Of a DNA stretch of 64,000 nt, positions 2,805-59,208 are shown in pieces. The translations under genes were made by a program, and so were the position numbers. Source of the stretch: Spirochaetia bacterium (GTDB lineage: Bacteria; Spirochaetota; Spirochaetia; WTKD01; G963693115); contig CBDDCA010000005.1 of the NCBI GenBank assembly GCA_965226055.1, positions 192,001 through 256,000 of the forward strand, read 5' to 3'. Below the pieces are notes generated by a model, which worked only from the letters and a program-made list of their open reading frames with translations, had not been told where the DNA came from and made no database searches. Positions within the stretch are counted from its first letter, which is position 1; each line of letters begins with the position of its first letter.

Positions 2805-2841
2805 CTATAGCAAGAAAGGAAATACTCCTTTCTTGCTATAG
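2805..2841. repeat. 37-bp palindrome (16-5-16) downstream of lipoprotein L1; terminator-like or recombination-site-like
   Basis: CTATAGCAAGAAAGGA-AATAC-TCCTTTCTTGCTATAG, 19 bp from the L1 stop codon; identical arms at 49093 and 54192. Confidence 0.9.
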
Positions 2842-2860
2842 GCATATTTCTATGTATCTA

Positions 2861-5800
2861 CTATGATGTACACTCTGGATCATCTCTATCCTTTGGGTAC
2901 TGTGCTGTTTTGCCAGCCATAGCTGAACCTGAGAAATCACCAGAATCTAATGTTAGGCTACACAATTTCCATGATGATAAGTTTTGATCAAATTTAGAAG
3001 CATCCTCAAATGCAAATCCAAATCCAAATCCAGTAACACTCCTTAATTTCCAGCTTACTATGTTTTTATTAAAAGCACTTGCTTTATAAAATATATAGGA
3101 AATATCAGTTACTTTCTCTACATTCCAACCTCCTATATCTTGATTAAAAGCAATAGCACTACTAAACATCCTATGCATACTGGTAACTTTTCCTGTATTC
3201 CAACCTCCTATGTCTTGATTAAAAATAGTAGCCTTCCTAAATACATTTTCCATACTAGTAACTTTTCCTGTATTCCAACCTCCTATGTCTTGATTAAAGG
3301 CATTCGCTTCAAAAAACATAGCATCTATATCCTCTACATTACTGGTATTCCATCGTGTTATGTCTCCATTAAAAGTACTATCATTCTGAAATAACTGACT
3401 CATATCGGTAATAACACTCGTATCTATCATGTTGAGGTTGGGACTAGGGTTGCTACTCTTCCCTCCTGTAGCTTGCCTTGTTTTTTCTTCACTGATAATA
3501 GTTTGTAGTGCTTTCTTTGTTGTTGGTCTATAATAGGTAGCTGCTTTTCCTGATGGTGCTGCTCTTAGCTCTGTCTGTATAACGATAGTGGCTAGTATTT
3601 TTTTCTTTGATGCAGTAAGGGTACACTGTACTACATCATAGCTATATTCAGTAATAGCTGTGTCTCGTATATTGGACTTATCTGCTATGCCTGTTATAGT
3701 AACTGTTTTGCTACTCTGATCAAACGATACTGCTAGCCCTGTTTCTTTTTTGATTTTCTTTGCATCTGCTTCTAGTATGTTTGCATCACAGGTAAAGGCA
3801 TTGCCACTGGGTGTGCTTGCTAATACTCTTGTAGTATTTATTGCTGGCGTTTTGCCTACTTCTGCTGAAACTATTGTAGTGTTTCCTATAGATATTGCGC
3901 TTGTTTCAAACTCGTAGCGTTCTCCTGTTGATGCTTTTGTAGGATCAGTGCTGTTTACTGCTTGTACAACTATTTCGTAGGTCGTTCCGTTTGTCAATCC
4001 TGTCAGGGTAGTGTTTGTTGTTCCTGCTGCTACTGTTGTGGGGCTTGAATCTGCTTGTTTTATCGCTGCTACATTTCTTGCACTGCCACTCTTGGCTACT
4101 TTGTATACTTTGTACGATACTTGTGCTGCTGTTAGGGTAGCTCCTGTATTTGTTTTGTGGCTTGCACTGAGGCTGGGGGCTGTCCACGATACTCTCATGC
4201 CGCCTGTCTGGGCTACTCTTGTCTGTATGCTTGTTACTTCTGCGGGGGCTGTTGCTTGCGATGCGGTTGTTACGCTTGCTACTGTTGAGGATGCTACTTT
4301 CTTGCTAGGGTCTGTTTTTATTGCTACCTCTACCACAAAGTAATACTTTGTCGCTCCTTTTATTGCTACTACTGGTGCTGTGTCTGAAGATAAGCCTAAA
4401 CTGGCAAGGGCTGGTACTGTGTACACTCCGCTACTTGCACTGCCTAGGTTTATCTTTCTGCCTGCAAGTACTTCTGCTACTGTAGGGTCAGTGTCTTTCT
4501 GTAAGCCATACACTGTGTATACTAGCTGATTGCTTGCTGTTATGTTTGTGCCATCGTAGTCTTTTGCTCCTGTAAATGTATTTAGCTCGGTAAGTACCAG
4601 CTTTATTGTGCCTGCTGTGTTTGTTGACGGTGATACTACTAGCTTTCCTGTCAGTAATGACTGGCTGGGTGCTACTGCTTTGGAAGTATAGATTTCCTTT
4701 ATTTCTGTTACATCGGTGTAAAAGCCTGCAGGAAAGAGCTTGTCGCTATTTGTTGCATCGTAATTGGATGATGTTGTGTTTACTATCCTCACTCCTATGT
4801 AGTAATCTTTTGCTGTTTCTATGGGCGTTGCTCCTGCACTGCTTCCACTGGTGCTGTCTACTATTGCTATGGATATTGTGTCTTGAGTTGTTCCTGTTGC
4901 TTTTGTGTATTTTGCTACTTTTACACTGCTTTTCTCTGTTGCCCATAAAGCCGATACGCTGGCAGGCTTTCCTGTGGTATCTTCTTTCTTGAGGTATAGC
5001 ACATAGTACGCAAGGTCTGTCGCTTCAAGGGCATTGCCATTTGCCTTGCTCACTCCTGCTATGTCTGAGGCATTTACTTGTACTGTTATTACTTTTTTCC
5101 CTCTATTGCTTCCTGTTGTAGGCACTGCAAATACCACTGCATTACTGTTAGTGTAGGTTGTTACTTTTGGTGTGCTTGGGGGAGCGGTAAGAGTTGCTTT
5201 CTTTATTGTTACTGATGCTCCTATGCTATACGAGGGATTAAGGCTGTTTATCGCTTCTACTCCTGCGGTATAGTCTGCTCCTTTCGTTCCTATAAATGTT
5301 GCTTTTAATGGGTTGCTGTTTCCTGCTAGCTCCCGTGTTTGTACTCCTGCAAGGGCTTTTATTTCGTCTAGTGTCTTTGTGCTATGGTCTCCTGCTGCTA
5401 TGTATACTTTGTACTGTATTTGTGCCTGTGTGAGTTTGCTTCCACTGGGAGCTTTGTTATCATTAGTAATAGTACCTGCACTAAATGTATAGACTGCTGT
5501 TGCAGTTGTTTGGGTTACTGACTCTACGGTGAGCTTTGCATCTTTTGCAGCGGGCGGTGCTGTCGAGGTGCTATCGTATACTGCTACTGCATCAGCAAGT
5601 GCGGTTACGGGGCTTACTCTGTTATTTGCTATTTGCAGAAAATCAAAGCGATAATTCTTGGCATTTGCTTGGCTCTTGGGTACTTCTACGCCATCTGCTA
5701 TCCCAAAGCTAATGGTGGTTGCTGTTCTTGTTATGCTTTTTTCTGCTATTAAGGTAGCTCCCTCTTTCATACGCAAAGTGTAGTATCGCCCTATGCCTGG

Positions 5801-7689
5801 AGCTTGCTTAAAAGTTGCTTTTATTTGTATAGCTCCTGTTTTGTCAAGGGTAGGCTTGCTTTGAAAGAGATCTTCTGAGGGGGCTGTGAGTGAGTTGGGG
5901 GTGGTTATGTCTTTTGTTGCTTGACTACTTTTGTTTTCTGAGTAATCAAGCGTGAGTATTGTTATGGTATATGTTTTTCCTTGCACAAGTTCTTCTACAG
6001 AGAGTGACTTTGTGGGATAGGGTATTTTCTTCTCGCTCAGTACTGCAGTGCTTGTGCCTTTCTCTGCTATGCTTATGCTGTATTCTTTTATGTCCTTGTT
6101 ATTGGCTTTTGTTGTATCGGGTGCTGTCCATGTTATCTGCGTGCCTATCTTTGCTGCTGATACAAAGGGATAGCTTGCTTGTATGCTTGTTACTGCATCG
6201 GGGGCGGTGCCATCATCTACTGTGGTGGTGGTTGCTGTTATTTTTGCTCCTTTGTTGCCTGTGTAATCTTGTGACTGTACTGCTATGCTGTACTCGGTAG
6301 TGGCTTTGAGGCCTGTTATCTGCGTGTTTCTTAGTGTTCTCTCTGTTATTGTTACTGTCTTTGCTGCTGTTGTGCTGTCCTTTTCTGTTGCTGTTATAGT
6401 CACTCCTGCATAATCTCGTACATCGGGGGCTTGCCAGCCTACTACTATGCTTGTTGCTCCTCCTATGGCACTTACATTGCTTACAGGCTCTGTGCTTTTG
6501 TCTGTTGTTGCTTGTTCTTTTGACACTGCAGTGGAGTACTTTCCGTTTTTAAAAACATACACTTCTACTTTGTACGTAAGCGTGCCGTAGAGTTTTGTGA
6601 GTGCTATGCCATCTTTTGCTACATACACAGTGGCGTACTCTCTGTTGTCTGCACTTGCTCCGCTGACATTGGTTGTACTTGTATCTTTGTCTATTGTTTC
6701 TTCTGCTACTACTGTATTGGTTGCGGTTGCTGTTACTCGTACTTGCAGGCTTTTGTCTGTAAAAGTAAAGCTCCCCCACTTGATAAGCAGGCTTTCATCG
6801 GCTGGGCTATTGCTTTTATCGTTTGCTGTTACTGTAAGGTTTGCCTCTGGCAGTGGCGTTACTGTTTGTGAGAGTGCTGATGGCACTATGCCTCTGAGTG
6901 CTTGCTTTGCCGTGCTTTTGTTACCGTTGCTATCTTTGTATACTACTACTATATCATAGCTGATGCCATCTATAGTGGGGACAGCAATGCTCACCTCTCC
7001 TTGTGTTACATCTTGTACTGATACTTCTGTCTTTACATTAGTAGTTTTTTCTATCACCTGTATTGTGGCTTCGGCTATGTCTGTCTTGCCTGACGAGAGC
7101 AGTGCTTTGTCCCATGTTAGCTTTATACTATCGTTTTGTGCTTTCTCTACTGCTACCCGTGTAAAAGTGTCCTGTGGTGCAGTTTCATCGGTAAGTGTTG
7201 TCACAGAGCGTGTTGTTTTTGGTGATATTTCTGTGTCTGAGCCTGTGTCTGATTTTTGGGCTTCTATCTCTACAGTATAATCGGTAGTAGCATGCAAGCC
7301 TCTGAGTGTGTAGGGTCTGTTTTGTTGAAACAATGCACGATATTCTATTGCAGGAACACGCACTTCTATTGATTGTGCTGGTGTCGTTGAAGTTGCTTTT
7401 ACAACTACATGTGTGGCTTCGCTGGGAGCTTGCCAGCGTAACGAGAGCGTCCCATCGTTGCCTGCTACTTGTATCTGCACATTGGACACTGATGCGAGTG
7501 TCGGGGTCACTGGTGTTCCCCCTCCGCCTGAGGAACTGCTACTGCTCTCTGCACATCCTACGAGTACGAGGGTAGTCATTGCTAGCACTGCTAGTATAGT
7601 TAGATTTTGCTTATATCGAGAGTGTACCCCCCCCCCCCCCCGATTTTTTTCAGGCTGTGAAGTTCCTTACTCAACCACATTTTTTTCAT
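2861..7689 (-). CDS. large surface lipoprotein L1 (Fn3/Ig-like stalk + DUF285/BspA-type repeat head); frameshifted at a G15 tract in the signal peptide
   Basis: ORF 2861-7588 carries the LVLVGC lipobox, Fn3-like repeats and six 25-aa MF..A..FNQDI..W repeats. The likely true start is ATG 7689 with an AAGGAG RBS matching L2/L3, 101 nt upstream of the ORF start (out of frame by one G). Confidence 0.88.
7627..7641 (-). repeat. poly-G15 simple sequence repeat (candidate phase-variation tract)
   Basis: 15 consecutive C on the + strand of an AT-rich genome, inside the L1 signal-peptide coding region. Confidence 0.85.
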
Positions 7690-7846
7690 AATGTTCTCCT
7701 TAATTATTATCTATATTGTGTGTTTATCATTACACAATGAACAACTATTATTATAACACAAATACTATTTTTTTGTGGCATCCTGCAAAAAGAAAAAATA
7801 CATAAAATAAGGCGTACACATATATTACTTTTAGCACTAGAAACTA

Positions 7847-8764
7847 TTACAGAGTCATGGGTAATAAAGATCTATATGAAGATAGTCGTTTTTCTGCCAA
7901 ATCAATATATTCTTTACAAGTGTCAAATCCAACAAAATTTCTATTTGATGTAAGAGCTGCTATACCAGTAGTACCACTTCCTATAAATGGATCAAGAATT
8001 ATATCATTTGTAAAAGAAAATAATTGAATAAGTCTAAATGGTAACTCAACAGGAAATGGAGCAGGATGACCTACTCGTCTTGCCGATTCTGCATTAAAAG
8101 TCCATATTGATTTTGTCCAATCAATAAAATTTTGCTTCAAAATAGTATTTTGTTTTCTCCCTTTCTCTTCCTGTGTCCGTTCACGTTTATATTCCCCCTT
8201 AGAAAAAATAAGAATATACTCATGAGTATCTCTTAATGTAGGATTAGATGCTGACATCCAACTCCCCCATGCAGTAGAAGAACTAGCACTAGCTGCCTTA
8301 TTCCAAATAATCTCCCCTCTCATATTAAAGCCTATATCTATCATAATGGTAGAAATATAATCACTAAGAGGAATATATGGTTTTCTCCCTACATTTGCTA
8401 TGTTAATACAAGCTCTACCTCCATTAACAAGAACTCTATATGTTTCCTTAAAAACATTACTAAGCATATGGAGATACTCCTGTAATGATAAATCTTCATC
8501 ATATTCTTTAGAAACATTATAAGGAGGAGAAGTAACCATAAGATGCAATGAATTATCAGGAATAACAGACATATCCTCAGCATTTCCTACAATGTTTGTA
8601 TTCAATAAATGATCAGGAAAATCATTTACTTCATAAGATGCTATCGTATGTGCCACATTTTCGTATAACTTTGAATTATAGAAAGGGGTAGAATTATGAT
8701 TGACTCTCCCTTTTACTCCAAACGAACTTGTAGCTGTATTGGTAGTAGAAGTATATTTACTCAT
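7847..8764 (-). CDS. site-specific DNA methyltransferase, beta class (probably N4-cytosine)
   Basis: Catalytic TSPPY precedes the SAM-binding LDPFIGSGTT; also HPAPFP and TAWGSW motifs. No adjacent endonuclease. Confidence 0.9.
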   Translation of the reverse strand: MSKYTSTTNTATSSFGVKGRVNHNSTPFYNSKLYENVAHTIASYEVNDFPDHLLNTNIVGNAEDMSVIPDNSLHLMVTSPPYNVSKEYDEDLSLQEYLHMLSNVFKETYRVLVNGGRACINIANVGRKPYIPLSDYISTIMIDIGFNMRGEIIWNKAASASSSTAWGSWMSASNPTLRDTHEYILIFSKGEYKRERTQEEKGRKQNTILKQNFIDWTKSIWTFNAESARRVGHPAPFPVELPFRLIQLFSFTNDIILDPFIGSGTTGIAALTSNRNFVGFDTCKEYIDLAEKRLSSYRSLLPMTL

Positions 8765-49092: not shown

Positions 49093-49129
49093 CTATAGCA
49101 AGAAAGGAGTATTTCCTTTCTTGCTATAG
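49093..49129. repeat. 37-bp palindrome (16-5-16) downstream of L2
   Basis: CTATAGCAAGAAAGGA-GTATT-TCCTTTCTTGCTATAG, 21 bp from the L2 stop. Confidence 0.9.
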
Positions 49130-49150
49130 GTGTGTATGTATCTCTCTATG

Positions 49151-52100
49151 TTACGATGTACATGCTGGATCACCTCTAAAAATCTTTGGGAGCTGTGCTG
49201 TTTTCGTTTCCATAGCTGAGCCTGTAAACATACGACTTTGTAATCTTGATATACTACACAATTTCCATGATGATAAATCTTGATCAAATACAGAAGCATC
49301 TCTAAATATATTAATAATATTTACAACTTTACTTACATTCCAGCTTCCTATATTCTGATTAAATACACTTGCTTTATTAAACATACTAAACATACTAGTA
49401 ACTTTACTTACATTCCAGTTTCCTATGTTTTGATTAAATGCACTTGCTTCATCAAACATACTATCCATATGAGTAACTTTACTCACATTCCAGTTTCCTA
49501 TATTTTGATTAAAATCATCTGTTTCAATAAACATACCAGCCATACCAGTAACTTTTCCCGTATCCCAATTTCCTATGTTTTGATTAAAAACACTTGCTCC
49601 CCAAAACATACTGGACATATTCATTACATTACTGGTATTCCACTGTGTTATATCTCCATTAAAAGTACTATCCTTCCTAAATAATTCACTCATATCAGTA
49701 ATAGCACTGGTGTCTATCATGTTGAGGTTGGGGCTAGGGTTACTGTTTCCTCCTGAACCTTGCCTTGTTTTTTCTTCGCTGATAATAGTTTGCAGTGCTG
49801 ATTTTGTTGTTGGTCTGTAATAGGCTTCTGCTTTTCCTGATGGTGCTGTTCTTATATCTGTCCGTATAACAATAGTGGCGGGTACTTTTTTCTTTGAAGC
49901 GGTTATTGTACACTGTGCTACATCATAGCTATACTCAGTAATATTAGGGTCACGTATATTGGACTTATTTGCTATGCCTGTTATAGTAACTGTTTTGCTA
50001 CTCTGATTAAACGATACTGCTAGCCCTGTTTCATCTTTTATTTTCTTTGCATCTGCCTCTAGTATGGTGGCATCACAGGTAAAGGCATTGCCACTGGGTG
50101 TGCTGGTAAGTACTCTTGTAGTATTTGATGCTAGTGCTGTGCCTACTGTTGCTGAAACTATGCTAGTGTTTCCTATAGATATTGCACTTGCTTCAAACTC
50201 GTGGCGTTCTCCTGCTGATACTTTTGCAGGATCGGTGCTGTTTACTGCTTGCACTACTATTTCGTAGGTCGTTCCGTTTGTCAATCCTGTCAGGGTAGTG
50301 TTTGTTGTTCCTGCTGCTATGTTTTTTGTTGCTGTATTAGCATTTGCTTTTATCTGTGCTACGCTTCTCGTTGTATCACCACTCTTGGCAATGCTGTATA
50401 CTTTGTACGATACTTGTGCTGTTGTTAGGGTAGCTCCTTTATTTGTTTTGTGACTTGCACTGAGGCTGGGAGCTGTCCACGATACTCTCATACCTGTCTG
50501 GGCTACTCTTGTCTGTATAGTTGATACTTCTGCAGGGGCAGTCGCTTGCGATGCGGTTGTTACGCTTGCCACTGTCGATACTGCTTTTTTGCTAGTGTCT
50601 GTTTTTACTGCTACTTCTACCACAAAGTAATACTTTGTCGCTCCTTTTATTGCTACTACTGGTGCTGTGTCTGCAGACAAACCTAAACTGGCAAGGGCTG
50701 GTACTGTGTACACTCCGCTACTTACACTGCCTATATCTATCTTTCTGCCTGCAAGTACTTCTGCTACTGTAGGGTCAGTGTCTTTCTGTAAGCCATACAC
50801 TGTGTATGCTAGCTGATTACTAGCGGTTATGTTTGTGCCATCGTAGTCTTTCGCTCCTGTAAATGTGCTTAGCTCGGTAAGTACCAGCTTTATTGTGCCT
50901 GCTGTGTTTGTTGACGGTGATACTACTAGCTTTCCTGTGAGTAATGACTGATTTGGTGCTACTGCTTTGGAAGTATAGATTTCCTTTATTTCTGTTACAT
51001 CGGTGTAAAAGCCTGCAGGAAAGAGCTTGTCGCTATTTGTTGCATCGTAATTGGGGGATGTTGTGTTGACTATCCTCACTCCTATGTAGTAATCTTTTGC
51101 TGTTTCTATGGGGGTTGCTCCTGCATTGCTTCCACTGGTGCTGTCTACTATTGCTATGGATATGGTTGCTTGAGTTGTTCCTGTTGCTTTTGTGTACTTT
51201 GCTACCTTTACACTGCTTTTCTCTGTTGCCCATAAAGCCGATACACTGGCAGGCTTTCCTGTAGTATCTTCTTTCTTGAGGTATAGCACATAGTACGCAA
51301 GGTCTGTCGCTTCAAGGGCATTGCCATTTGCCTTACTCACTCCTGCTATTGCTGAGGCATTTACTTGTACTGTTATGACTTTTTTTCCTCTGTTGCTTCC
51401 TGTGCTAGGCACTGCAAATACTACTGCATTACTGTTAGTGTAGGTGGTGCTTTTTGGGGTATTTGGTGGTGCAGTAAGCGTTGCTTTCTTTATTGTTGCT
51501 GATGCTCCTATGCTATACGAAGGATTGAGGCTGTTTATTGCTTCTACTCCTGCGGTATAGTCTGCTCCTTTCGTTCCTATAAATCTTACTTGTAAGGTAC
51601 TGTCTCCTGCTATATTCTGTGTTTGTACTCCTGCAAGTCCTTTTATTGCCTCTAGTGTTTTTGTGCTGTGGTCTCCCTCTGCTATGTATACTTTGTACTG
51701 TATTTGTGCCTGTGTGAGTTTGCTTCCACTGGGTGCTTTGTTATCATTGGTAATGTCTCCTGCACTAAATGTATAGACTGCTGTTGCGGTTATTTGGGTT
51801 ACTGATTCTACAGAGAGCTTTGCATCTTTGGGAGCGGGCGGTGCTGTTGAGGTACTATCATATACTGCCACAGTATCAGCAAGAGTAGTTACAGGGCTTA
51901 CTATGTTATTTGCTATTGTCAAAAAGGTAAAGCGATAATTCTTGGCATTTGCTTGTACCTTAGGTACTTCTAAGCCATCTGCTATCCCAAAAGTAATGGC
52001 TGTTACACTTCCTGTTATGCTTTTTTCTGCTACCAGTGTAGCACCATCGTACATACGCAAAGTATAGTAGCTTCCTATGCCTGGAGCTTGCTTAAAGCTT

Positions 52101-53950
52101 GCTTTTATTTGTATTGCTCCTGTTGTGTCTAAGCTAGGCTTGTTTTGAAAAAGATCTTCTGACGGAGCTGTGGGTTGCGGAGTAGTTATGTCTTTTGTCG
52201 CTTGAGTGCTTTTGTTTTCTGAGTAATCAAGCGTGAGTATTGTTATGGTATATGTTTTTCCTTGTGTGAGTTCTTCTACAGAGAGTGCTGTTGTGGGATA
52301 GGCTACTTTTTTCTCATTTACTACTGTGGTGCTTGTGCCTTTTTCTGCTATGCTTATGCTGTATTCTTTTATGTCTTTGTTATTGGCTTTTGTTCCATCG
52401 GGTGCTGTCCATGTTATCTGTGTGCCTATCTTTGTAGGTGATACAAAAGGATAGCTTGCTTGTATGCTTGTCACTGCATCGGGGGCGGTGCCATCATCTA
52501 CTGTAGTGGTGGTTGCTGTTATTTTTGCTCCTTTGTTGCCTGTGTAGTCTTGTGACTGTACTGCTATGCTGTATTCAGTGGTAGCTTTTAGTCCTGTTAT
52601 CTGCGTGTTTCTTAGTGTTCTCTCTGTTATTGTTACTGTCTTTGCAGGGCTGTTCTTTTCTGTTACTGTTATAGTCACTCCTGCATAGTCTCTTACATCG
52701 GGGGCTTGCCAGCCTACTACTATGCTTGTTGCTCCTCCTACTGCACTCACATTGCTTACAGGCTCTGTGCTTTTGTCGGTTGTTGCTTGTTCTTTTGACA
52801 CTGCAGTGGAGTACTTTCCGTTTTGAGAGACATACACTTCTACTTTGTAGGTAAGCGTGCCATAGAGTTTTGTGAGGGCTATGCCATCTTTTGCTACATA
52901 CACAGTGGCGTACTCTTGATTGTCTGCACTTGCAGAGCTGAGTTTGGCTGTACTGCTATTGCTCACTGTTTCGTATGCTATGAGAGTATTTGTTGCTGTT
53001 GCTATCACTCGTACTTGCAGACTTTTTCCTGTACTAAAATCAAAGTTATTCCCCCACTTGATAAGCAGGCTTTCATCGGCTGGGCTATTGCTTTTATCGT
53101 TTGCTGTTACTGTAAGATCTGCCTCTGGCAGTGCGGCTACTGTCTGTGAGAGTGCTGAGGGTACTATGCCTCTGAGTGCTTGCTTTGCCGTGCTTTCGTT
53201 GCCATTGCTATCTCTGTATACTACTGTTACATCATAGCTTATGCCGTCTATAGTAGGAACAGCAATAGTTACTTCTCCTTGTGTTACATCTTGTACTGTT
53301 ACTTCTTTTTTTACATTAGTGGTGCTTTCTATCACCTGTACTATGGCTTCTGCTATGTCTGTTTTGCCTGACGAGAGCAGTGCTTTGTCCCATGTTATCT
53401 TTATACCATTTGTTGCTGATTCTACTGCTACCTTGTTGAAGGTATCTTGAGGTTTCGTTGTATCTGTCAATGTTGTCACAGAGCGGGTTGTTTTTGGTGA
53501 TACTTCTGTATCTGAGCCTGAGTTTGACTTCTGGGCTTCTATCTCTACAGTATAATCGGTAGTAGCGTGCAAGCCTCTGAGTACATAGGGTCTGTTTTGT
53601 TGAAACAATGTACGATATTCTATTGCAGGAACACGCACTTCTATTGATTGTGCTGGTGTCGTTGATGTAGCTTTTACAACTACATGCGTAGCATCGCTTG
53701 GAGCTTCCCAGCGTAACGAGAGCGTCCCATCGTTGCCTGCTGCTTGTATCTGCACATTGGACACTGATGCGAGTGTCGGGGTTACTGGCGTTCCCCCTCC
53801 GCCTGAGGAACTACTGCTACTCTCTGCACATCCTACGAGTACGAGGGTAGTTATTGCTAGCACTAACACAAGCGCAACTAGAGTTATGCTATACTTACTT
53901 TGTAGCTTACCATTTATCTGATAGTTTAGTTTTTCATTACTTTTTTTCAT
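49151..53950 (-). CDS. large surface lipoprotein L2 (Fn3/Ig-like stalk + six DUF285/BspA-type repeats)
   Basis: 1599-aa ORF, AAGGAG RBS, LVLVGC lipobox; close paralog of L1 and L3. Confidence 0.92.
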   Translation of the reverse strand: MKKSNEKLNYQINGKLQSKYSITLVALVLVLAITTLVLVGCAESSSSSSGGGGTPVTPTLASVSNVQIQAAGNDGTLSLRWEAPSDATHVVVKATSTTPAQSIEVRVPAIEYRTLFQQNRPYVLRGLHATTDYTVEIEAQKSNSGSDTEVSPKTTRSVTTLTDTTKPQDTFNKVAVESATNGIKITWDKALLSSGKTDIAEAIVQVIESTTNVKKEVTVQDVTQGEVTIAVPTIDGISYDVTVVYRDSNGNESTAKQALRGIVPSALSQTVAALPEADLTVTANDKSNSPADESLLIKWGNNFDFSTGKSLQVRVIATATNTLIAYETVSNSSTAKLSSASADNQEYATVYVAKDGIALTKLYGTLTYKVEVYVSQNGKYSTAVSKEQATTDKSTEPVSNVSAVGGATSIVVGWQAPDVRDYAGVTITVTEKNSPAKTVTITERTLRNTQITGLKATTEYSIAVQSQDYTGNKGAKITATTTTVDDGTAPDAVTSIQASYPFVSPTKIGTQITWTAPDGTKANNKDIKEYSISIAEKGTSTTVVNEKKVAYPTTALSVEELTQGKTYTITILTLDYSENKSTQATKDITTPQPTAPSEDLFQNKPSLDTTGAIQIKASFKQAPGIGSYYTLRMYDGATLVAEKSITGSVTAITFGIADGLEVPKVQANAKNYRFTFLTIANNIVSPVTTLADTVAVYDSTSTAPPAPKDAKLSVESVTQITATAVYTFSAGDITNDNKAPSGSKLTQAQIQYKVYIAEGDHSTKTLEAIKGLAGVQTQNIAGDSTLQVRFIGTKGADYTAGVEAINSLNPSYSIGASATIKKATLTAPPNTPKSTTYTNSNAVVFAVPSTGSNRGKKVITVQVNASAIAGVSKANGNALEATDLAYYVLYLKKEDTTGKPASVSALWATEKSSVKVAKYTKATGTTQATISIAIVDSTSGSNAGATPIETAKDYYIGVRIVNTTSPNYDATNSDKLFPAGFYTDVTEIKEIYTSKAVAPNQSLLTGKLVVSPSTNTAGTIKLVLTELSTFTGAKDYDGTNITASNQLAYTVYGLQKDTDPTVAEVLAGRKIDIGSVSSGVYTVPALASLGLSADTAPVVAIKGATKYYFVVEVAVKTDTSKKAVSTVASVTTASQATAPAEVSTIQTRVAQTGMRVSWTAPSLSASHKTNKGATLTTAQVSYKVYSIAKSGDTTRSVAQIKANANTATKNIAAGTTNTTLTGLTNGTTYEIVVQAVNSTDPAKVSAGERHEFEASAISIGNTSIVSATVGTALASNTTRVLTSTPSGNAFTCDATILEADAKKIKDETGLAVSFNQSSKTVTITGIANKSNIRDPNITEYSYDVAQCTITASKKKVPATIVIRTDIRTAPSGKAEAYYRPTTKSALQTIISEEKTRQGSGGNSNPSPNLNMIDTSAITDMSELFRKDSTFNGDITQWNTSNVMNMSSMFWGASVFNQNIGNWDTGKVTGMAGMFIETDDFNQNIGNWNVSKVTHMDSMFDEASAFNQNIGNWNVSKVTSMFSMFNKASVFNQNIGSWNVSKVVNIINIFRDASVFDQDLSSWKLCSISRLQSRMFTGSAMETKTAQLPKIFRGDPACTS

Positions 53951-54054
53951 AATGTTCTCCTTATAATTATCTATTTATTGTATAATTATATTATACATTA
54001 TACACAAATATCATTATAGCAAAAATACTATTTTTTGTGTTATATCTGAAAATT

Positions 54055-54070
54055 AAAAAAAAAAAAAAAA
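54055..54070 (-). repeat. poly-T16 tract in the L2 upstream region
   Basis: 16 consecutive A on the + strand, ~105-120 nt upstream of the L2 ATG. Confidence 0.8.
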
Positions 54071-54164
54071 TACACTGGATTACACAAAAATGCATAGCAA
54101 AAAGTGATAATAATGCTACAATAGAGATGCTATGAACAAAATTTGATCCCTACTGAAGCCTTTG

Positions 54165-54191
54165 CTGTCGCAATTAGCCCTTGAATCTGCA
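54165..54191 (-). repeat. dispersed repeat end abutting the L3 palindrome
   Basis: Reverse complement TGCAGATTCAAGGGCTAATTGCGACAG matches the 25076 and 30046 copies. Confidence 0.7.
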
Positions 54192-54228
54192 CTATAGCAA
54201 GAAAGGAGTATTTCCTTTCTTGCTATAG
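54192..54228. repeat. 37-bp palindrome (16-5-16) downstream of L3
   Basis: Identical to 49093-49129; 19 bp from the L3 stop. Confidence 0.9.
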
Positions 54229-54247
54229 GTTGTATTGCTACACTATG

Positions 54248-57200
54248 CTATGATGTACATGCTGAACTACCAGCAACCTTTGGATACTGTGCTGTTTTGC
54301 CATCCATAGCTGAATTTTTGAAAATATTGAAAAGTCCTTGTACCCTACACAGTTTCCATGAGGATAAATTTTGATCAAATACAGAAGCATTACGAAACAT
54401 GGCACTAATATTAGTAACATTCCCTACATTCCAATTTCCTATATTTTGATTAAAGGCACTTGCTAAAAGAAACATGGTAGCCATAGTCTTTACACTACTC
54501 ACATCCCAATCTCCTATGTCTTGATTAAAAGCAGTAGCTTCATCAAACATTGAATTCATATTAGTAACCTTGCTTGTACCCCAATCTCCTATGTCTTGAT
54601 TAAAGACAACAGCTTTAAAAAACATAGCCCCCATATCCGTTACGTTACTGGTATTCCACTGTGTTATGTCTCCATTAAAAGTACTATCACTATCAAATAA
54701 ACTATTCATATCAGTAATAGCACTGGTGTCTATCATGTTGAGGTTGGGGCTAGGGTTACTATTCCCTCCTGAACCTTGCCTTGTTTTTTCTTCACTGATA
54801 ATAGTTTGAAGCTGTGCCTTTGTTGTTGGTCTGTAATAGGCTTCTGCTTTTCCTGATGGTGCTGTTCTTAGCTCTGTCTGTATAACAATAGTGGCTGGCA
54901 CTTTTTTCTTTGAAGCGGTAATTGTACATTGCACTACATCATAGCTATACTCAGTAATAGCTGTGTCTCGTATATTGGACTTATTTGCTATGCCTGTTAT
55001 GGTAACTGTTTTGCTATTCTGATTAAACGATACTGCTAGGCCTGTTTCTTTTTTGATTTTCTCTGCATCTACCTCTAGTATGTTTGCATCACAGGTAAAG
55101 GCATTGCCACTGGGTGTGCTTGCTAGTACTCTTGTAGTATTTGATGCTAGTGCTGTACCTACTGTTGCTAATACTATGCTAGTGTTTCCTATAGCTATTC
55201 CTCTTGCTTCAAACTCGTGGCGTTCTCCTGTCGATGCTTTTGTGTCATCGGTACTGTTTACTGCTTGCACCACTATTTCGTAGGTCGTTCCGTTCGTCAA
55301 GTTTGTCAGGGTAGTGTTTGTTGTTCCTGCTGCTACTGTTGTGGGGCTTGAATCTGCTTGTTTTATCGCTGCTACATTTCTTGCACTGCCACTCTTGGCT
55401 ACTTTGTATACTTTGTACGATACTTGTGCAGCTGTTAGGGTAGCTCCTTTATTTGTTTTGTGACTTGCACTGAGGCTGGGAGCTGTCCACGATACTCTCA
55501 TACCTGTCTGGGCTACTCTCGTCTGTATAGTTGATACTTCTGCGGGGGCAGTCGCCTGCGATGCTGTCGTTACACTTGCCACTGTCGATACTGCTTTTTT
55601 ACTTGTGTCTGTTTTTATTGCTACTTCTACCACAAAGTAGTACTTTGTCGCTCCCTTTATTGCTACTACTGGTGCTGTGTCTGATGACAAGCCTAAACTG
55701 GCAAGGGACTGTACTGTGTACACTCCGCTACTTGCACTGCCTAGGTTTATCTTTCTGCCTGCAAGTACTTCTGCTACGGTAGCAGTGCCGTCTTTCTGTA
55801 AGCCGTACACTGTGTATACTAGCTGATTACTTGCTGTTATGTTTGTGCCATCGTAGTCTTTTGCTCCTGTAAATGTGCTTAACTCGGTAAGTACCAGCTT
55901 TATTGTTCCTGTAGTATTTGTTGACTGTGATACTACCAGCTTTCCTGTGAGTAATGACTGGCTGGGTGCTACTGCTTTGGAAGTATAGATTTCCTTTATT
56001 TCTGTTACATCGGTGTAAAAGCCTGCAGGAAAGAGCTTGCTACTATTGGATGCATCGTAATTGGGGGATGTTGTGTTGACTATCCTTACCCCTATGTAGT
56101 AATCCTTTGCTGTTTCTATGGGCGTTACTCCTGCATTGCTTCCACTGGTGCTGTCTACTATTGCTATGGATATTGTGTCTTGAGTTGTTCCTGTTGCTTT
56201 TGTGTATTTTGCTACCTTTACACTGCTTTTCTCTATCGCCCACAGAGCTGATACGCTGGCAGGCTTTCCTGTGGTATCTTCTTTCTTGAGGTATAGCACA
56301 TAGTACGCAAGGTCTGTCGCTTCAAGGGCATTGCCATTTGCTTTGCTCACTCCTGCTATTGCTGAAGCATTGAGTTGTACTGTTATGACTTTTTTCCCTC
56401 TATTGCTTCCTGTTGTAGGCACTGCAAATACTACTGCATTACTGTTAGTGTAGGTGGTGCTTTTTGGGGTATTTGGTGGTGCAGTAAGCGTTGCTTTCTT
56501 TATTGTTGCTGATGTTCCTATGCTATACGATGGATTGAGGCTGTTTATTGCTTCTACTCCTGCGGTATAGTCTGCTCCTTTCGTTCCTATAAATCTTACT
56601 TGTAAGGTACTGTCTCCTGCTATATTCTGTGTTTGTACTCCTGCAAGGCCTTTTATTGCCTCTAGTGTTTTTGTGCTGTGGTCTCCTTCTGCTATGTATA
56701 CTTTGTACTGTATTTGTGCCTGTGTAAGTTTGCTTCCACTGGGTGCTTTGTTATCATTGGTAATGTCTCCTGCACTAAATGTATAGACTGCTGTTGCGGT
56801 TACTTGTGTTACTGACTCTACAGAGAGCTTTGCATCTTTTGCAGCGGGCGGTGCTGTCGAGGTACTATCGTATACTGCCACAGTATCGGAAAGAGTAGTT
56901 ACAGGGCTTACTATGTTATTTGCTATTGTCAAAAAGGTAAAGCGATAATTCTTGGCATTTGCTTGTACCTTAGGTACTTCCAAGCCATCTGCTATCCCAA
57001 AAGTAATGGCTGTTACACTTGCTGTTATGCTTTTTTCTGCTACCAGTGTAGCTCCATCGTACATACGCAGAGTGTAGTAGCTTCCTATGCCTGGAGCTTG
57101 CTTAAAGGTTGCTTTTATCTGTATTGCTCCTGTTGTGTCTAAGCTAGGCTTGTTTTGAAAAAGATCTTCTGACGGAGCTGTGGGTTGCGGAGTAGTTATG

Positions 57201-58945
57201 TCTTTTGTTGCTTGGCTACTTTTGTTTTCTGAGTAATCAAGCGTGAGTATTGTTATGGTGTATGTTTTGCCTTGTGTGAGTTCTTCTACAGAGAGTGCTG
57301 TCGTGGGATAGGGTATTTTCTTCTCGCTCAGTACTGTGGTGCTTGTGCCTTTTTCTGCTATGCTTACGCTGTATTCTTTTATGTCTTTGTTATTGGCTTT
57401 TGTTGTATCGGGGGCTGTCCATGTTATCTGTGTGCCTATCTTTGTAGGTGATACAAAGGGATAGCTTGCTTGTATGCTTGTTACTGCATCGGGGGCGGTG
57501 CCATCATCTACTGTGGTGGTGGTTGCTGTTATTTTTGCTCCTTTGTTGCCTGTGTAATCTTGTGACTGTACTGCTATGCTGTACTCAGTGGTAGCTTTTA
57601 GGCCTGTTATCTGTGTATTGCGTACTGTTCTCTCTGTTATTGTTACTGTCTTTGCTGTTGTTGTTGTGCTGTCTTTTTCCGTTACTGTTATAGTCACTCC
57701 TGCATAGTCTCTTACATCGGGGGCTTGCCAGCCTACTACTATGCTTGTTGCTCCTCCTACTGCACTCACATTGCTTACAGGCTCTGTGCTTTTGTCGGTT
57801 GTTGCTTGTTCTTTTGACACTGCAGTGGAGTACTTTCCGTTTTTAGAAACATACACTTCTACTTTGTAAGTAAGCGTACCATAGAGTTTTGTGAGGGCTA
57901 TGCCGTCCTTTGCTACATACACAGTGGCGTACTCTTGATTGTCTGCACTTGCAGAGCTGAGTTTGGCTGTACTGCTATTGCTCACTGTTTCGTATGCTAT
58001 GAGAGTATTTGTTGCTGTTGCTATCACTCGTACTTGCAGACTTTTTCCTGTACTAAAATCAAAGTTATTCCCCCACTTGATAAGCAGGCTTTCATCGGCT
58101 GGGCTATTGCTTTTATCGTTTGCTGTTACTGTAAGATCTGCCTCTGGCAGTGCGGCTACTGTCTGTGAGAGTGCTGAGGGTACTATGCCTCTGAGTGCTT
58201 GCTTTGCCGTGCTTTCGTTGCCATTGCTATCTCTGTATACTACTGTTACATCATAGCTTATGCCGTCTATAGTAGGAACAGCAATAGTTACTTCTCCTTG
58301 TGTTACATCTTGTACTGTTACTTCTTTTTTTACATTAGTGGTGCTTTCTATCACCTGTACTATGGCTTCTGCTATGTCTGTTTTGCCTGACGAGAGCAGT
58401 GCTTTGTCCCATGTTATCTTTATACCATTTGTTGCTGATTCTACTGCTACCTTGTTGAAGGTATCTTGAGGTTTCGTTGTATCTGTCAATGTTGTCACAG
58501 AGCGGGTTGTTTTTGGTGATACTTCCGTGTCTTTTTGTGCCTCTATCTCTACAGTATAATCGGTAGTGGCATGCAAGCCTCTGAGTACATAGGGTCTGTT
58601 TTGTTGAAACAATGTACGATATTCTATTGCAGGAACACGCACTTCTATTGATTGTGCTGGTGTCGTTGATGTAGCTTTTACAACTACATGCGTAGCATCG
58701 CTTGGAGCTTCCCAGCGTAACGAGAGCGTCCCATCGTTGCCTGCTGCTTGTATCTGCACATTGGACACTGATGCGAGTGTCGGGGTTACTGGTGTTCCTC
58801 CTCCGCCTGAGGAACTACTGCTACTCTCTGCACATCCTACGAGTACGAGGGTAGTCATTGCTAGCACTAAAAATAGTGCAACAACTATAAATATGTTCAG
58901 CTTACCATGTAGCTGATGGTTTAGTTTTTCATTACTTTTTTTCAT
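54248..58945 (-). CDS. large surface lipoprotein L3 (Fn3/Ig-like stalk + five DUF285/BspA-type repeats)
   Basis: 1565-aa ORF, AAGGAG RBS, LVLVGC lipobox; tandem paralog of L2. Confidence 0.92.
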   Translation of the reverse strand: MKKSNEKLNHQLHGKLNIFIVVALFLVLAMTTLVLVGCAESSSSSSGGGGTPVTPTLASVSNVQIQAAGNDGTLSLRWEAPSDATHVVVKATSTTPAQSIEVRVPAIEYRTLFQQNRPYVLRGLHATTDYTVEIEAQKDTEVSPKTTRSVTTLTDTTKPQDTFNKVAVESATNGIKITWDKALLSSGKTDIAEAIVQVIESTTNVKKEVTVQDVTQGEVTIAVPTIDGISYDVTVVYRDSNGNESTAKQALRGIVPSALSQTVAALPEADLTVTANDKSNSPADESLLIKWGNNFDFSTGKSLQVRVIATATNTLIAYETVSNSSTAKLSSASADNQEYATVYVAKDGIALTKLYGTLTYKVEVYVSKNGKYSTAVSKEQATTDKSTEPVSNVSAVGGATSIVVGWQAPDVRDYAGVTITVTEKDSTTTTAKTVTITERTVRNTQITGLKATTEYSIAVQSQDYTGNKGAKITATTTTVDDGTAPDAVTSIQASYPFVSPTKIGTQITWTAPDTTKANNKDIKEYSVSIAEKGTSTTVLSEKKIPYPTTALSVEELTQGKTYTITILTLDYSENKSSQATKDITTPQPTAPSEDLFQNKPSLDTTGAIQIKATFKQAPGIGSYYTLRMYDGATLVAEKSITASVTAITFGIADGLEVPKVQANAKNYRFTFLTIANNIVSPVTTLSDTVAVYDSTSTAPPAAKDAKLSVESVTQVTATAVYTFSAGDITNDNKAPSGSKLTQAQIQYKVYIAEGDHSTKTLEAIKGLAGVQTQNIAGDSTLQVRFIGTKGADYTAGVEAINSLNPSYSIGTSATIKKATLTAPPNTPKSTTYTNSNAVVFAVPTTGSNRGKKVITVQLNASAIAGVSKANGNALEATDLAYYVLYLKKEDTTGKPASVSALWAIEKSSVKVAKYTKATGTTQDTISIAIVDSTSGSNAGVTPIETAKDYYIGVRIVNTTSPNYDASNSSKLFPAGFYTDVTEIKEIYTSKAVAPSQSLLTGKLVVSQSTNTTGTIKLVLTELSTFTGAKDYDGTNITASNQLVYTVYGLQKDGTATVAEVLAGRKINLGSASSGVYTVQSLASLGLSSDTAPVVAIKGATKYYFVVEVAIKTDTSKKAVSTVASVTTASQATAPAEVSTIQTRVAQTGMRVSWTAPSLSASHKTNKGATLTAAQVSYKVYKVAKSGSARNVAAIKQADSSPTTVAAGTTNTTLTNLTNGTTYEIVVQAVNSTDDTKASTGERHEFEARGIAIGNTSIVLATVGTALASNTTRVLASTPSGNAFTCDANILEVDAEKIKKETGLAVSFNQNSKTVTITGIANKSNIRDTAITEYSYDVVQCTITASKKKVPATIVIQTELRTAPSGKAEAYYRPTTKAQLQTIISEEKTRQGSGGNSNPSPNLNMIDTSAITDMNSLFDSDSTFNGDITQWNTSNVTDMGAMFFKAVVFNQDIGDWGTSKVTNMNSMFDEATAFNQDIGDWDVSSVKTMATMFLLASAFNQNIGNWNVGNVTNISAMFRNASVFDQNLSSWKLCRVQGLFNIFKNSAMDGKTAQYPKVAGSSACTS

Positions 58946-59043
58946 AATGTTCTCCTTATAATTATCTATTTATTGTATAATTATATTATACATAATACAC
59001 AAGTCTTATTATATCAAAAATACTATTTTTTGTGTTATATCTT

Positions 59044-59061
59044 AAAAAAAAAAAAAAAAAA
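59044..59061 (-). repeat. poly-T18 tract in the L3 upstream region
   Basis: 18 consecutive A on the + strand at the position equivalent to the L2 tract. Confidence 0.8.
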
Positions 59062-59148
59062 TACACTGGATTACACAAAAATACATAGCAAAAAGTGATA
59101 ATAATGCTACAATAGAGATGCTATGAACAAAAAGGAAAGCACACAAAC

Positions 59149-59208
59149 TGCACGAATTCAAGGAACAAAAAAGAGCAAGGAAAATAAAAATTAGTCCTTG
59201 AATCCGCA
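59149..59208. mobile_element. MITE-like copy of the dispersed repeat with both ends
   Basis: TGCACGAATTCAAGGA...TCCTTGAATCCGCA inverted ends around an A-rich core shared with 25076-25136; non-coding. Confidence 0.45.

What the first reader, a model, noticed from the sequence alone, without database searches (positions are those of the whole stretch)
2805..59208. Candidate variable-adhesin/receptor system: constant stalk, hypervariable repeat head, shared 3' palindrome and a homopolymer switch in each of three loci
Seen: L1, L2 and L3 are nearly identical over ~1400 aa and then diverge sharply in the last ~160-190 aa (DUF285 repeats numbering 6/6/5). Each is followed by the same 37-bp palindrome and each has its own homopolymer (G15 in the L1 signal peptide, T16/T18 upstream of L2/L3). 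Established: DUF285/PARCEL repeats form surface solenoids, and SSR phase variation plus gene conversion drive antigenic variation in Mycoplasma vlp/vsp, Treponema tpr and Borrelia vls loci. Inference: this combination looks like a coordinated display system in which a long Fn3 stalk presents exchangeable binding heads, conceptually like lamprey VLRs. I do not recognise it as a described system, and no catalytic machinery is present in the window.
Basis: partly seen in the sequence, partly recalled or inferred. Interest (0 to 1): 0.85.

Follow-up and report, generated by a model that had tools for sequence, protein, structure and literature searches.

The report
Switchable stalk-and-head lipoprotein gene family
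The three genes are members of a family of about 35 giant surface lipoprotein genes in an uncultured spirochaete, each with its own slippery on/off run of G's or T's, a long stalk kept uniform by copying between copies, and a different leucine-rich-repeat-like tip: a large example of a known strategy rather than a new cassette-swapping machine.

Summary
L1, L2 and L3 share a constant part of about 1360 aa at 87-94% identity. Past a conserved junction the heads drop to 51-65% identity. Each gene is followed by the 37-bp palindrome and each carries a homopolymer: G15, T16 or T18.

It is not a three-locus system. The genome has 37 such genes, 7.8% of its DNA. Thirteen have poly-G in the signal-peptide coding region and 12 of those are out of frame, L1 included. 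Eighteen have T14-T27 upstream. The scan had already found this family on other pieces of this genome.

New here:
- Stalks group by genome while heads interleave between two species, so stalks evolve in concert and heads are old lineages.
- The L1 locus carries a different head lineage in the sister species.
- L2 and L3 are absent from the sister species at the syntenic site.
- The palindrome is family-specific, 25 of 25 sites, and behaves like a terminator module.
- The head folds as an LRR-like solenoid.

I found no silent cassettes, no reverse transcriptase and no recombinase linked to the palindrome. Switching itself was not shown, because only contigs were available. Verdict: a new variant of the contingency-gene lipoprotein families.

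The parts
2861..7689 (-). L1: lipoprotein gene, frameshifted in this assembly. The Shine-Dalgarno ATG at 7689-7687 runs into a stop after the G15 tract; the long ORF 2861-7588 is in another frame.
   Evidence: Pfam fn3 and DUF285
7627..7641 (-). G15 tract in the L1 signal-peptide coding region. G13 or G16 would be in frame; G15 is out of frame.
   Evidence: A contig of run X6 that reaches the unique upstream flank has one G fewer; the positional orthologue in G001 has G12.
7787..7798 (-). Interrupted T tract (T6-C-T5) upstream of L1, at the place where L2 and L3 carry T16 and T18.
   Evidence: read
3401..3451 (-). L1 junction, encoding NPSPNLNMIDTSVITDM: the boundary between the constant part and the head.
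   Evidence: the first 30 nt of the junction are 92% identical across 35 genes
2864..3400 (-). L1 head: 179 aa, 6 DUF285 repeats and a Cys-containing tail.
   Evidence: Window 3085-3335 is about 98% identical to a non-syntenic G001 gene.
2805..2841 (.). 37-bp palindrome after L1, with the loop inverted relative to L2 and L3.
49151..53950 (-). L2: intact 1599-aa lipoprotein gene (MKKSNEKLN... LVGC lipobox).
54055..54070 (-). T16 tract, 105 nt upstream of the L2 ATG.
49691..49741 (-). L2 junction.
49154..49690 (-). L2 head: 179 aa, 6 repeats. The model gives an LRR-like solenoid, with pLDDT mostly 80-96 over residues 140-350.
49093..49129 (.). 37-bp palindrome after L2.
54248..58945 (-). L3: intact 1565-aa lipoprotein gene, in tandem with L2.
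59044..59061 (-). T18 tract, 99 nt upstream of the L3 ATG.
54707..54757 (-). L3 junction.
54251..54706 (-). L3 head: 152 aa, 5 repeats.
54192..54228 (.). 37-bp palindrome after L3, lying between the L3 stop and the L2 promoter region.

Best explanation
L1-L3 are three of about 35 paralogous contingency genes of a spirochaete genus. Each encodes an N-terminally lipidated surface protein: a stalk of about 1360 aa built of Fn3-type domains, a short conserved junction, and a C-terminal DUF285 head that folds as a leucine-rich-repeat-like solenoid.

Shown:
- Every copy is an autonomous unit with its own 5' region, signal peptide and lipobox, and a slippage-prone homopolymer. The tract is either poly-G inside the signal-peptide codons or poly-T about 100 nt upstream of the start codon. 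Most copies also have a strong hairpin just after the stop codon.
- The stalks are homogenised within each genome. The heads are old, diverged lineages shared between the two species, fast-evolving at the protein level.
- Heads have been reassorted relative to stalks and to chromosomal loci. Loci are also gained and lost.

Inferred:
- Slipped-strand mispairing changes tract length. Poly-G changes switch translation on or off by frameshift. Poly-T changes tune promoter strength.
- A population would therefore display shifting subsets of about 35 different binding or antigenic tips on a common stalk.
- General homologous recombination between the near-identical stalks, up to the conserved junction, keeps the stalks uniform and occasionally moves heads.
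- The palindrome is most likely the family's transcription terminator or 3' mRNA stabiliser. It insulates each unit, for example L3 from L2.
For: Family size and autonomy:
- 37 ORFs have at least 800 aa of stalk coverage at 50% identity or more.
- 33 of them have lipobox anchors. Thirteen carry G9-G15 in the 5' coding region (1 in frame, 12 out of frame). Eighteen carry T14-T27 upstream and have an in-frame Shine-Dalgarno ATG. Three have neither.
- Stalk depth is 20-40 times flank depth in 4 runs from 3 studies.

Tract polymorphism:
- The L1 locus has G15 in the window, G14 in an X6 contig that bridges into unique flank, and G12 in the positional orthologue.
- T tracts range from 14 to 27 among paralogues.

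Concerted stalks against old heads:
- Stalk tree, 64 rows: the genome label needs 5 changes against 21.5 in shuffles, with 0 of 500 shuffles as low.
- Head tree, 69 rows: 23 changes against 23.4 (a smaller set).
- Seven cross-species head pairs, picked as nearest neighbours on the head trees or by identity, have dS 0.08-0.31. Housekeeping genes have 0.10-0.24. The stalks of the same gene pairs have dS 0.30-0.54.
- Head dN/dS is 0.57-1.26 against 0.05-0.21 for housekeeping genes.

Mosaicism and turnover:
- L1/L2/L3 stalks show 169 runs of site patterns against 313 expected; the lowest of 2000 permutations was 277.
- L1's head matches a non-syntenic G001 gene, while its hairpin and 3' flank match the positional orthologue.
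- L2 and L3 are absent from the syntenic G001 site, and G001 has an extra copy elsewhere in the syntenic region.

Hairpin:
- 25 of 25 sites lie 10-28 nt (23 sites) or close behind (2 sites) a family gene or fragment.
- Exact arms occur 22 times in G000 and 18 times in G001, and in none of 29 other relatives.
- Seven family genes instead carry a different hairpin followed by a T-run. Some diverged copies keep pairing through changes in both arms.

Fold and precedent:
- Leucine-rich-repeat proteins fill nearly all of the top 50 rows; the best is 6mlx_A at Z 12.2, rmsd 3.3 over 185 residues.
- PARCEL lipoproteins with homopolymer contingency tracts are described in PMC2996958 (passages). Poly-G phase variation is described in Treponema pallidum in PMC7864442 (abstract and passages).
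Against: - No switching was observed. All runs are kept as contigs only, which break at the G tract and at the hairpin, and no RNA run was listed.
- Homopolymer lengths in an assembly can be wrong by a base, so the 12-of-13 out-of-frame count is soft.
- The promoter scans found no more sites than shuffled sequence, so how the poly-T tract acts is unproven.
- The palindrome lacks a T-run after the stem on the gene strand, so it is not a textbook intrinsic terminator.
- Surface exposure, adhesion and any role in immune or phage evasion are inferences from architecture alone.
- The set of G001 DNA loci is partial: 17 family genes were fetched out of about 36 proteins listed. 'Best match' statements based on DNA are therefore lower bounds.
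Confidence: 0.75

Rival explanations
1. This is a dedicated head-exchange system. The palindrome and the conserved junction are cis signals at which heads are swapped at high frequency between copies, as in vls, pilE/pilS or tprK cassette conversion, giving programmed receptor diversification.
For: - The junction is a sharp island of conservation: 92% nt identity across 35 genes.
- The hairpin arms are exact at 22 sites in G000 and 18 in G001, while heads diverge to 51-65% identity.
- At the L1 locus the head lineage differs between species while the hairpin loop and flank stay positional, so an exchange ended between the head and the hairpin.
- The same head clade sits on different stalk clades.
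Against: - There are no promoterless donor cassettes. The 33 anchored copies and the two short copies all have their own start region and signal peptide.
- No reverse transcriptase was found, in a genome that is 89% complete. The two tyrosine recombinases are far from any hairpin.
- Heads are stable enough to pair as orthologues across species, with dS like housekeeping genes.
- Among the 61 fetched heads of both genomes the longest exact stretch shared by two G000 heads is 81 nt, and most shared stretches lie in the conserved first repeat or the tail.
- The most similar head pair in the genome is only 88% identical.
- Seven copies use a different terminator hairpin and one sister copy of L2 has lost the palindrome cleanly.
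Confidence: 0.07
2. The palindrome is more than a terminator. It also serves as the passive 3' homology anchor, or as a cruciform-forming breakpoint, that bounds gene-conversion tracts, with the junction as the 5' anchor. This is compatible with the main explanation.
For: - The 3' switch of similarity at L1 lies just upstream of the hairpin.
- The hairpin is an island of identity between variable tails and unrelated flanks.
- Both loop orientations occur in both species, which suggests that the palindrome itself undergoes strand-switch events.
Against: - Thirty-seven bp is near the lower limit for RecA-type recombination (recalled general knowledge).
- Only one locus was mapped at this resolution.
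- Whole-unit duplications that include 3' flank also occur: L2 and C5:708027 share the flank beyond the hairpin.
Confidence: 0.25
3. The homopolymers are not DNA-level switches. Either their lengths are assembly errors, or the out-of-frame genes are still expressed through transcriptional slippage on the long G runs, so the family is expressed constitutively at low level.
For: - Tracts of 12-15 G are long enough for RNA-polymerase slippage (recalled general knowledge).
- The assembly is a metagenome consensus.
- Short-read contigs break at the tract.
Against: - The tracts sit at the same place in 13 G000 genes and 11 fetched G001 genes, with lengths from 9 to 18.
- Only 3 of these 24 are in frame, fewer than the one third expected from random lengths. 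My own binomial arithmetic, not a tool call, gives about 0.02. The copies are related and so not independent.
- Length differs at the same locus in three sources.
Confidence: 0.1

Closest known systems
PARCEL / DUF285 surface lipoproteins of Mollicutes with contingency tracts (Roske et al. 2010, PMC2996958, passages read; M. agalactiae drp family, Nouvel et al. 2010, PMC2824730, passages read)
   Same: - The same Pfam repeat family (PF03382) in N-terminally lipidated proteins.
[quoted passage not shown]
- Dispersed multigene families that sit in the most variable genome regions, of which few copies are expressed.
   Different: - The host is a diderm spirochaete, not a mycoplasma.
- The DUF285 part is a small C-terminal head on a 1360-aa Fn3 stalk.
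- There are about 35 near-identical stalks per genome evolving in concert, against 12-13 drp genes.
- There is a family-specific 3' palindrome.
Promoter-tract phase-variable lipoprotein families such as Mycoplasma hyorhinis Vlp (recalled, not read here) and the M. capricolum contingency genes (cited as reference 43 in PMC2996958; reference entry seen only)
   Same: A multigene lipoprotein family in which each gene has its own homopolymer in the promoter region, giving combinatorial expression.
   Different: - Here the poly-T lies about 100 nt upstream of the ATG, and its relation to the -35 and -10 boxes is unknown.
- A second switch design, poly-G in the signal peptide, is used on the same chassis.
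Treponema pallidum tpr genes (poly-G promoter phase variation of tprE/G/J/L, PMC7864442, abstract and passages read; tprK segmental conversion, mentioned there)
   Same: A spirochaete paralogous family of surface proteins, poly-G tracts of variable length, and recombination among paralogues.
   Different: - Tpr proteins are beta-barrel outer-membrane proteins, not lipoproteins with Fn3 and LRR-like parts.
- The tpr poly-G tracts are in promoters, not in signal-peptide codons.
- tprK uses silent donor sites, and none was found here.
Borrelia vlsE and Neisseria pilE/pilS cassette systems (recalled)
   Same: Constant and variable regions, gene conversion, and a cis DNA structure near the locus.
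   Different: Those systems have one expression site plus silent cassettes. Here every copy is a complete, separately switchable gene.
Bacterial LRR surface proteins such as T. pallidum TpLRR (PDB 6mlx), and lamprey VLRs as an analogy
   Same: The head model superposes on LRR solenoids: 6mlx_A at Z 12.2, and an LGR4-hagfish VLR fusion, 4qxe, at Z 8.0. Variable residues sit on a conserved repeat scaffold.
   Different: - No sequence similarity to solved structures was found.
- The repeat is 25 aa with an FNxDIxxW core.
- Diversity is encoded in the germline as about 35 whole genes, not assembled somatically.

Membership tests
DUF285 / PARCEL repeat proteins (PF03382) | Match to PF03382 above the gathering score | tested here: met
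   185.6, 200.3 and 186.2 bits against a cut-off of 25
DUF285 / PARCEL repeat proteins (PF03382) | Tandem repeats of about 25 aa with conserved aromatic positions | tested here: met
   340 units from 69 heads. F1, W8 and F20 are invariant or nearly so; positions 15, 17, 18, 21 and 22 are the most variable.
DUF285 / PARCEL repeat proteins (PF03382) | Palindromic coding property of the PARCEL DNA repeat (a similar peptide is encoded on both strands) | not tested
   Not examined
Bacterial lipoproteins | N-terminal signal peptide ending in a lipobox Cys | tested here: met
   ...LVLVGC(A/S)E follows a charged N-region and a hydrophobic stretch in L2, L3 and 33 family genes. This was read by motif; no dedicated predictor was run.
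Simple-sequence-repeat contingency (phase-variable) loci | A long mutable repeat placed in the 5' coding region or the promoter region | tested here: met
   G9-G15 in signal-peptide codons of 13 genes and T14-T27 upstream of 18 genes. These are the only long runs in the window.
Simple-sequence-repeat contingency (phase-variable) loci | Repeat length varies between strains at the same locus | tested here: inconclusive
   The L1 locus reads G15 in the window, G14 in one X6 contig that bridges to unique flank, and G12 in G001. These are contigs and assemblies only, one locus.
Simple-sequence-repeat contingency (phase-variable) loci | Reversible on/off switching within a clonal population | not testable with these tools
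   No raw reads and no RNA run were served
Cassette-based antigenic variation (vls, pilS, tprK type) | One expression site plus promoterless silent donor cassettes | tested here: not met
   All 33 anchored copies and two short copies have their own Shine-Dalgarno ATG and signal peptide. No head-only arrays lie next to family genes in the tblastn map.
Diversity-generating retroelements | A reverse transcriptase with a template repeat near the variable gene | tested here: not met
   PF00078 gave 0 matches in the genome, which is 89% complete, while the control genomes rang
Site-specific invertible or shufflon systems | A recombinase gene linked to the repeated inverted sequence | tested here: not met
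   Only two PF00589 genes, at C4:192284-194820. The nearest hairpin is at C4:150093. None lies in the window.
Leucine-rich-repeat fold | A curved solenoid of short beta-strand repeats that superposes on solved LRR proteins | tested here: met
   In VIA-align, leucine-rich-repeat proteins fill nearly all of the top 50 rows. The best is 6mlx_A at Z 12.2, rmsd 3.3 over 185 residues, on model residues 138-352. Foldseek alone gave no hit at E of 0.001 or better.
Intrinsic (Rho-independent) terminators | A GC-rich stem followed by a U-run | tested here: inconclusive
   The stem is stable, at -24.7 to -26.9 kcal/mol, but no T-run follows on the gene strand. Seven paralogues carry a different hairpin with a T-run at the same place.

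The most novel reading that the evidence does not exclude
The family is a germline-encoded, combinatorially switched receptor repertoire. About 35 trans-specific LRR-like heads are kept diverse by selection. They are reassorted onto a conversion-homogenised stalk through two dedicated cis anchors: the 51-nt junction and the 3' tail with its palindrome. The palindrome would act both as terminator and as a cruciform-type recombination hot spot. This would be a bacterial counterpart, in logic, of LRR-based variable receptors.
Probability: 0.15. Interest if true: 0.75.

Novelty: new variant of a known kind. Interest (0 to 1): 0.45.

Why it matters
It shows how far the contingency-gene strategy can be scaled. 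About 8% of a 2.25-Mb genome goes to one family, and 16% to all DUF285/Fn3 proteins. Two different switch designs sit on one gene chassis.

The partition is unusually clean: a conversion-homogenised scaffold and old, fast-evolving binding tips. The family gives a natural data set for studying where gene conversion stops and how repertoires of LRR-like binders are maintained.

For gut spirochaetes known only from metagenomes, it points to the likely main variable surface antigens or adhesins. It also explains why short-read assemblies of these genomes break at these genes.

Tried and rejected
- Read-level heterogeneity could not be measured. All 19 listed runs are kept as contigs, and the four that were laid break at the hairpin (2834) and at the G tract (7623-7629).
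- No RNA holder was listed.
- Parts of the stalk without single-copy cover, and head variants in X5 and X6, could not be assigned to L1 rather than to paralogues. This includes a joint that skips 177 nt in X6.
- Promoter consensus scans gave no more sites than shuffles, so they do not place the poly-T tract relative to a promoter.
- Rfam found no family in the window.
- Sequence search of the head against solved structures found nothing at E of 0.01 or better. Foldseek against the PDB gave nothing at E of 0.001 or better. Only the VIA-align wide search gave the LRR matches.
- An ungapped identity profile upstream of the junction is blurred by indels between two linker types, so I did not use it to claim a sharp 5' boundary.
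- The first start-codon regex mis-placed ATGs. It was replaced by the frame-walking script.
- Searches of the held paper library for DUF285 together with 'spirochaet' or 'spirochet' gave one unrelated paper each. I can say only that no description of this family was found in that library.
- Supplementary files, such as Additional file 7 of PMC2996958, which lists the PARCEL ORFs with contingency tracts, were not seen.

Full report
**Observation**

The window has three long minus-strand ORFs: 2861-7588, 49151-53950 and 54248-58945. Their products match Pfam fn3 and, at the C-terminus, DUF285 (PF03382) with 186-200 bits.

From the lipobox Cys to a conserved motif, NPSPNLNMIDTS[AV]ITDM, the three proteins are 87.6-94.4% identical over 1359-1368 aa. 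After the motif the heads (179, 179 and 152 aa) are 59-65% identical. They hold 6, 6 and 5 FNxDIxxW repeats.

A palindrome with 16-bp arms and a 5-nt loop follows each stop codon. It folds at -24.7 to -26.9 kcal/mol, and 0 of 200 shuffles fold as well. In L1 the loop is the reverse complement of the L2/L3 loop.

L1 has G15 at 7627-7641, between its Shine-Dalgarno ATG (7689) and the lipobox. With 15 G's the ATG frame stops after 29 codons, and G13 or G16 would be in frame. L2 and L3 have T16 and T18, 105 and 99 nt upstream of their ATGs. L1 has an interrupted T6-C-T5 at the matching place. These are the only long homopolymers in the 64 kb.

**Scale**

The window lies in a 2.25-Mb, 6-contig genome with 35% G+C. 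The genome encodes three FlaA flagellar-sheath homologues, which none of 14 control genomes has. That fits a spirochaete, as earlier notes of this scan say. That FlaA is specific to spirochaetes is my recollection.

A tblastn and ORF catalogue finds 84 ORFs related to the stalk or the head, 16.1% of the genome. Of these, 37 have at least 800 aa of stalk at 50% identity or more, which is 7.8% of the genome.

Thirty-three of the 37 keep the lipobox anchor:
- 13 have G9-G15 in the signal-peptide codons. One is in frame and 12, including L1, are out of frame.
- 18 have T14-T27 upstream together with an in-frame Shine-Dalgarno ATG.
- 3 have neither.

In the sister species G001, the 11 anchored loci that I fetched all have G12-G18, and 2 are in frame. 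Four of them also have T13-T15.

Among 5.8 billion proteins, close stalk relatives come only from these two assemblies, plus one protein at 46% identity. In 31 related genomes the full stalk is found only in G000 and G001; other genera match the head alone.

Depth over the stalk is 20-40 times that of the flanks in four public runs from three studies. The high copy number is therefore not an assembly artefact.

**The palindrome**

Allowing one mismatch per arm, the genome has 25 sites:
- 23 lie 10-28 nt after the stop of a stalk-plus-head gene.
- The other two lie after DUF285 fragments, at C3:159657 next to the 176-aa ORF, and at C6:744803 next to the head hits.

Exact arms occur 22 times in G000 and 18 times in G001, and in none of 29 other relatives. 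The element is thus specific to the family.

It is an island of identity between diverged tails and mostly unrelated flanks.

Of the 37 family genes, 20 have the canonical form within 90 nt of the stop. For the other 17:
- 5 have diverged forms. Some, such as C6:314363, like C4:150093, keep pairing through matched changes in both arms.
- 7 have a different hairpin, AAAAGAGAGTGC...GCACTCTCTTTT, followed by T's.
- The rest have no clear hairpin or another one.

C5:708027, whose head is sister to L2's (95 support), has L2's downstream flank but lacks the palindrome exactly.

Two alternative hairpins at the same position, one of them a textbook terminator, are the main reason I read the palindrome as a terminator or 3' stabiliser module. 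It lacks a T-run on the gene strand, so this remains an inference.

**Stalk and head have different histories**

With all family proteins:
- The tree of the first 650 stalk residues (64 rows) groups by genome. The label needs 5 changes against 21.5 in shuffles, and 0 of 500 shuffles are as low.
- The head tree (69 rows) is fully interleaved, with 23 changes against 23.4. The smaller DNA-derived set gave the same picture, 3 against 12.3 and 14 against 13.8.

Seven cross-species head pairs, picked as nearest neighbours on the head trees or by identity, have dS of 0.08-0.31. That is the range of seven housekeeping genes of the window, 0.10-0.24. The stalks attached to those same heads have dS of 0.30-0.54, so they are not orthologous. 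Head dN/dS is 0.57-1.26 against 0.05-0.21 for housekeeping genes.

The same head clade, with the ...KFKGS.QCS tail, sits on three different stalk clades. Poly-G and poly-T 5' modules are mixed within stalk clades.

Within the window, the site patterns of L1/L2/L3 form 169 runs against 313 expected; the minimum of 2000 permutations was 277. One stretch is 98% identical between L1 and L3 but only 76% between L1 and L2.

The simplest reading has two parts. Frequent gene conversion homogenises the stalks within a genome. The heads are old lineages kept apart, either by diversifying or relaxed selection or by lack of homology.

**Synteny**

The window is collinear with G001 at 92-96% identity.
- L1 has a positional orthologue at 86% identity. 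Its head is a different lineage: dS is 0.50, and it groups with G000 C5:315569.
- L1's head is sister to a gene 790 kb away in G001 (98 support; dS 0.11).
- A three-way alignment shows that window 3085-3335 is about 98% identical to that distant gene. The hairpin, its loop and the 3' flank match the positional orthologue. The last nine codons match neither.
- L2 and L3 (window 49005-59191) are replaced in G001 by 1.3 kb holding a small DUF285-only ORF.
- G001 has an 11-kb insert with an extra family gene between window 29158 and 29253.

Heads are therefore not fixed to loci, and loci turn over.

**No dedicated machinery**

- No reverse transcriptase was found (the genome is 89% complete).
- The only two tyrosine recombinases lie together on contig 4, not near a hairpin.
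- The neighbours of L1-L3 are housekeeping genes: serS, a NeuB-like synthase, a DNA methyltransferase, hisC, nagA, nagB and an ABC transporter.
- The two short copies next to C5:337641, which looked like silent cassettes, have their own signal peptides.
- Exact stretches shared between the 61 fetched heads are short. The longest pair within G000 shares 81 nt, and most lie in the first repeat or the tail.

I therefore reject a vls-like or DGR-like device and favour general homologous recombination.

**Structure**

A model of the last 359 aa of L2, built on a 66-row family alignment, has pLDDT mostly 80-96 over residues 140-350. Foldseek gave nothing significant. An all-against-representatives alignment gave leucine-rich-repeat proteins in nearly all of its top 50 rows. 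It is led by T. pallidum TpLRR, 6mlx_A, at Z 12.2 and rmsd 3.3 over 185 residues.

Within the 25-aa repeat, F1, W8, V13 and F20 are conserved, while positions 15, 17, 18, 21 and 22 are the most variable. Two Cys in the tail and two in the module before the junction are invariant, and they may form capping disulfides. That last point is inference.

**Comparison with what is known**

Roske et al. (PMC2996958, passages) describe PARCEL/DUF285 lipoproteins in mycoplasmas. [quoted passage not shown] Nouvel et al. (PMC2824730, passages) describe the dispersed drp family as a sequence reservoir in variable regions. Poly-G promoter phase variation is shown for T. pallidum tpr genes (PMC7864442, abstract and passages).

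The principle is therefore known. Four things differ here: the host phylum, the Fn3-stalk and LRR-like-head architecture, the size and concerted evolution of the family, and the family-specific 3' palindrome. Two library searches for DUF285 together with spirochaete terms found nothing relevant.

The scan had already reported the family on other pieces of this genome (e1-1069933, e1-1069945, e1-4835544). My tests agree with those notes. They add the cross-species tree contrast, the dS evidence, the L1 locus mosaic, the absence of L2 and L3 from the sister species, and the census of the palindrome.

**Verdict**

The feature is real and striking. It is a large, lineage-specific variant of phase-variable lipoprotein families, not a new kind of diversification machine. 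Switching and function remain to be shown.

Noticed in passing
window 2805-2841 vs 49093-49129 and 54192-54228: The palindrome's 5-nt loop is inverted in L1 relative to L2 and L3. Both loop orientations, and several other loop sequences, occur in both species while the arms stay identical. This suggests strand-switch or cruciform events at the palindrome.
   Followed up: partly
G000:C5:708027-712844 and its 3' flank (outside the window): The copy whose head is sister to L2's has L2's downstream flank but lacks the palindrome exactly, which looks like a clean deletion of the inverted repeat.
   Followed up: partly
G000, e.g. C5:498932, C6:39789, C6:150392 (outside the window): Seven family genes, those checked having ...ACPSS tails, carry a different 3' hairpin (AAAAGAGAGTGC...GCACTCTCTTTT) with a T-run in place of the palindrome.
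   Followed up: partly
window 38102-46745: Three more surface-protein genes lie between glnS-like 36218-37894 and nagA. Two have Fn3, He_PIG and 6 or 8 DUF285 stretches (38102-40714 and 40930-44289). One has Fn3 only (44442-46745). None has a long homopolymer.
   Followed up: partly
window 3085-3335 vs G001:C1 near 2231512 (L025): About 250 nt of the L1 head are about 98% identical to a non-syntenic gene of the sister species, above the 95% of the shared backbone. The stretch includes a 116-nt exact match. This may reflect exchange between the species or strong constraint.
   Followed up: partly
window 29158/29253 vs G001:C1:1468117-1479522: G001 has an 11.4-kb insert here that holds an extra family gene in the opposite orientation (1468279-1472616), with G15.
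   Followed up: partly
G000:C4:192284-195943: The only two tyrosine recombinase genes of the genome lie in tandem, directly upstream of a small 288-aa DUF285 ORF.
   Followed up: no
whole genome G000: There are 32 G or C runs of 9 or more and 28 A or T runs of 14 or more in a genome of 35% G+C. Thirteen of the G/C runs belong to this family. By position several of the rest fall at the 5' ends of other large stalk- or DUF285-related ORFs, for example C4:62955, C5:123067, C5:450702 and C6:843518.
   Followed up: partly
G001:C1:2231512-2239365 (L025, P0004): One G001 gene is a 2616-aa ORF that matches the stalk three times over (query 21-1250, 64-814 and 987-1599). It appears to be an in-frame fusion or internal duplication of stalks under one head.
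   Followed up: no
window 7847-8764: An adenine DNA methyltransferase gene ends 158 nt upstream of the L1 start, on the same strand. The G001 region differs here by about 0.8 kb.
   Followed up: no
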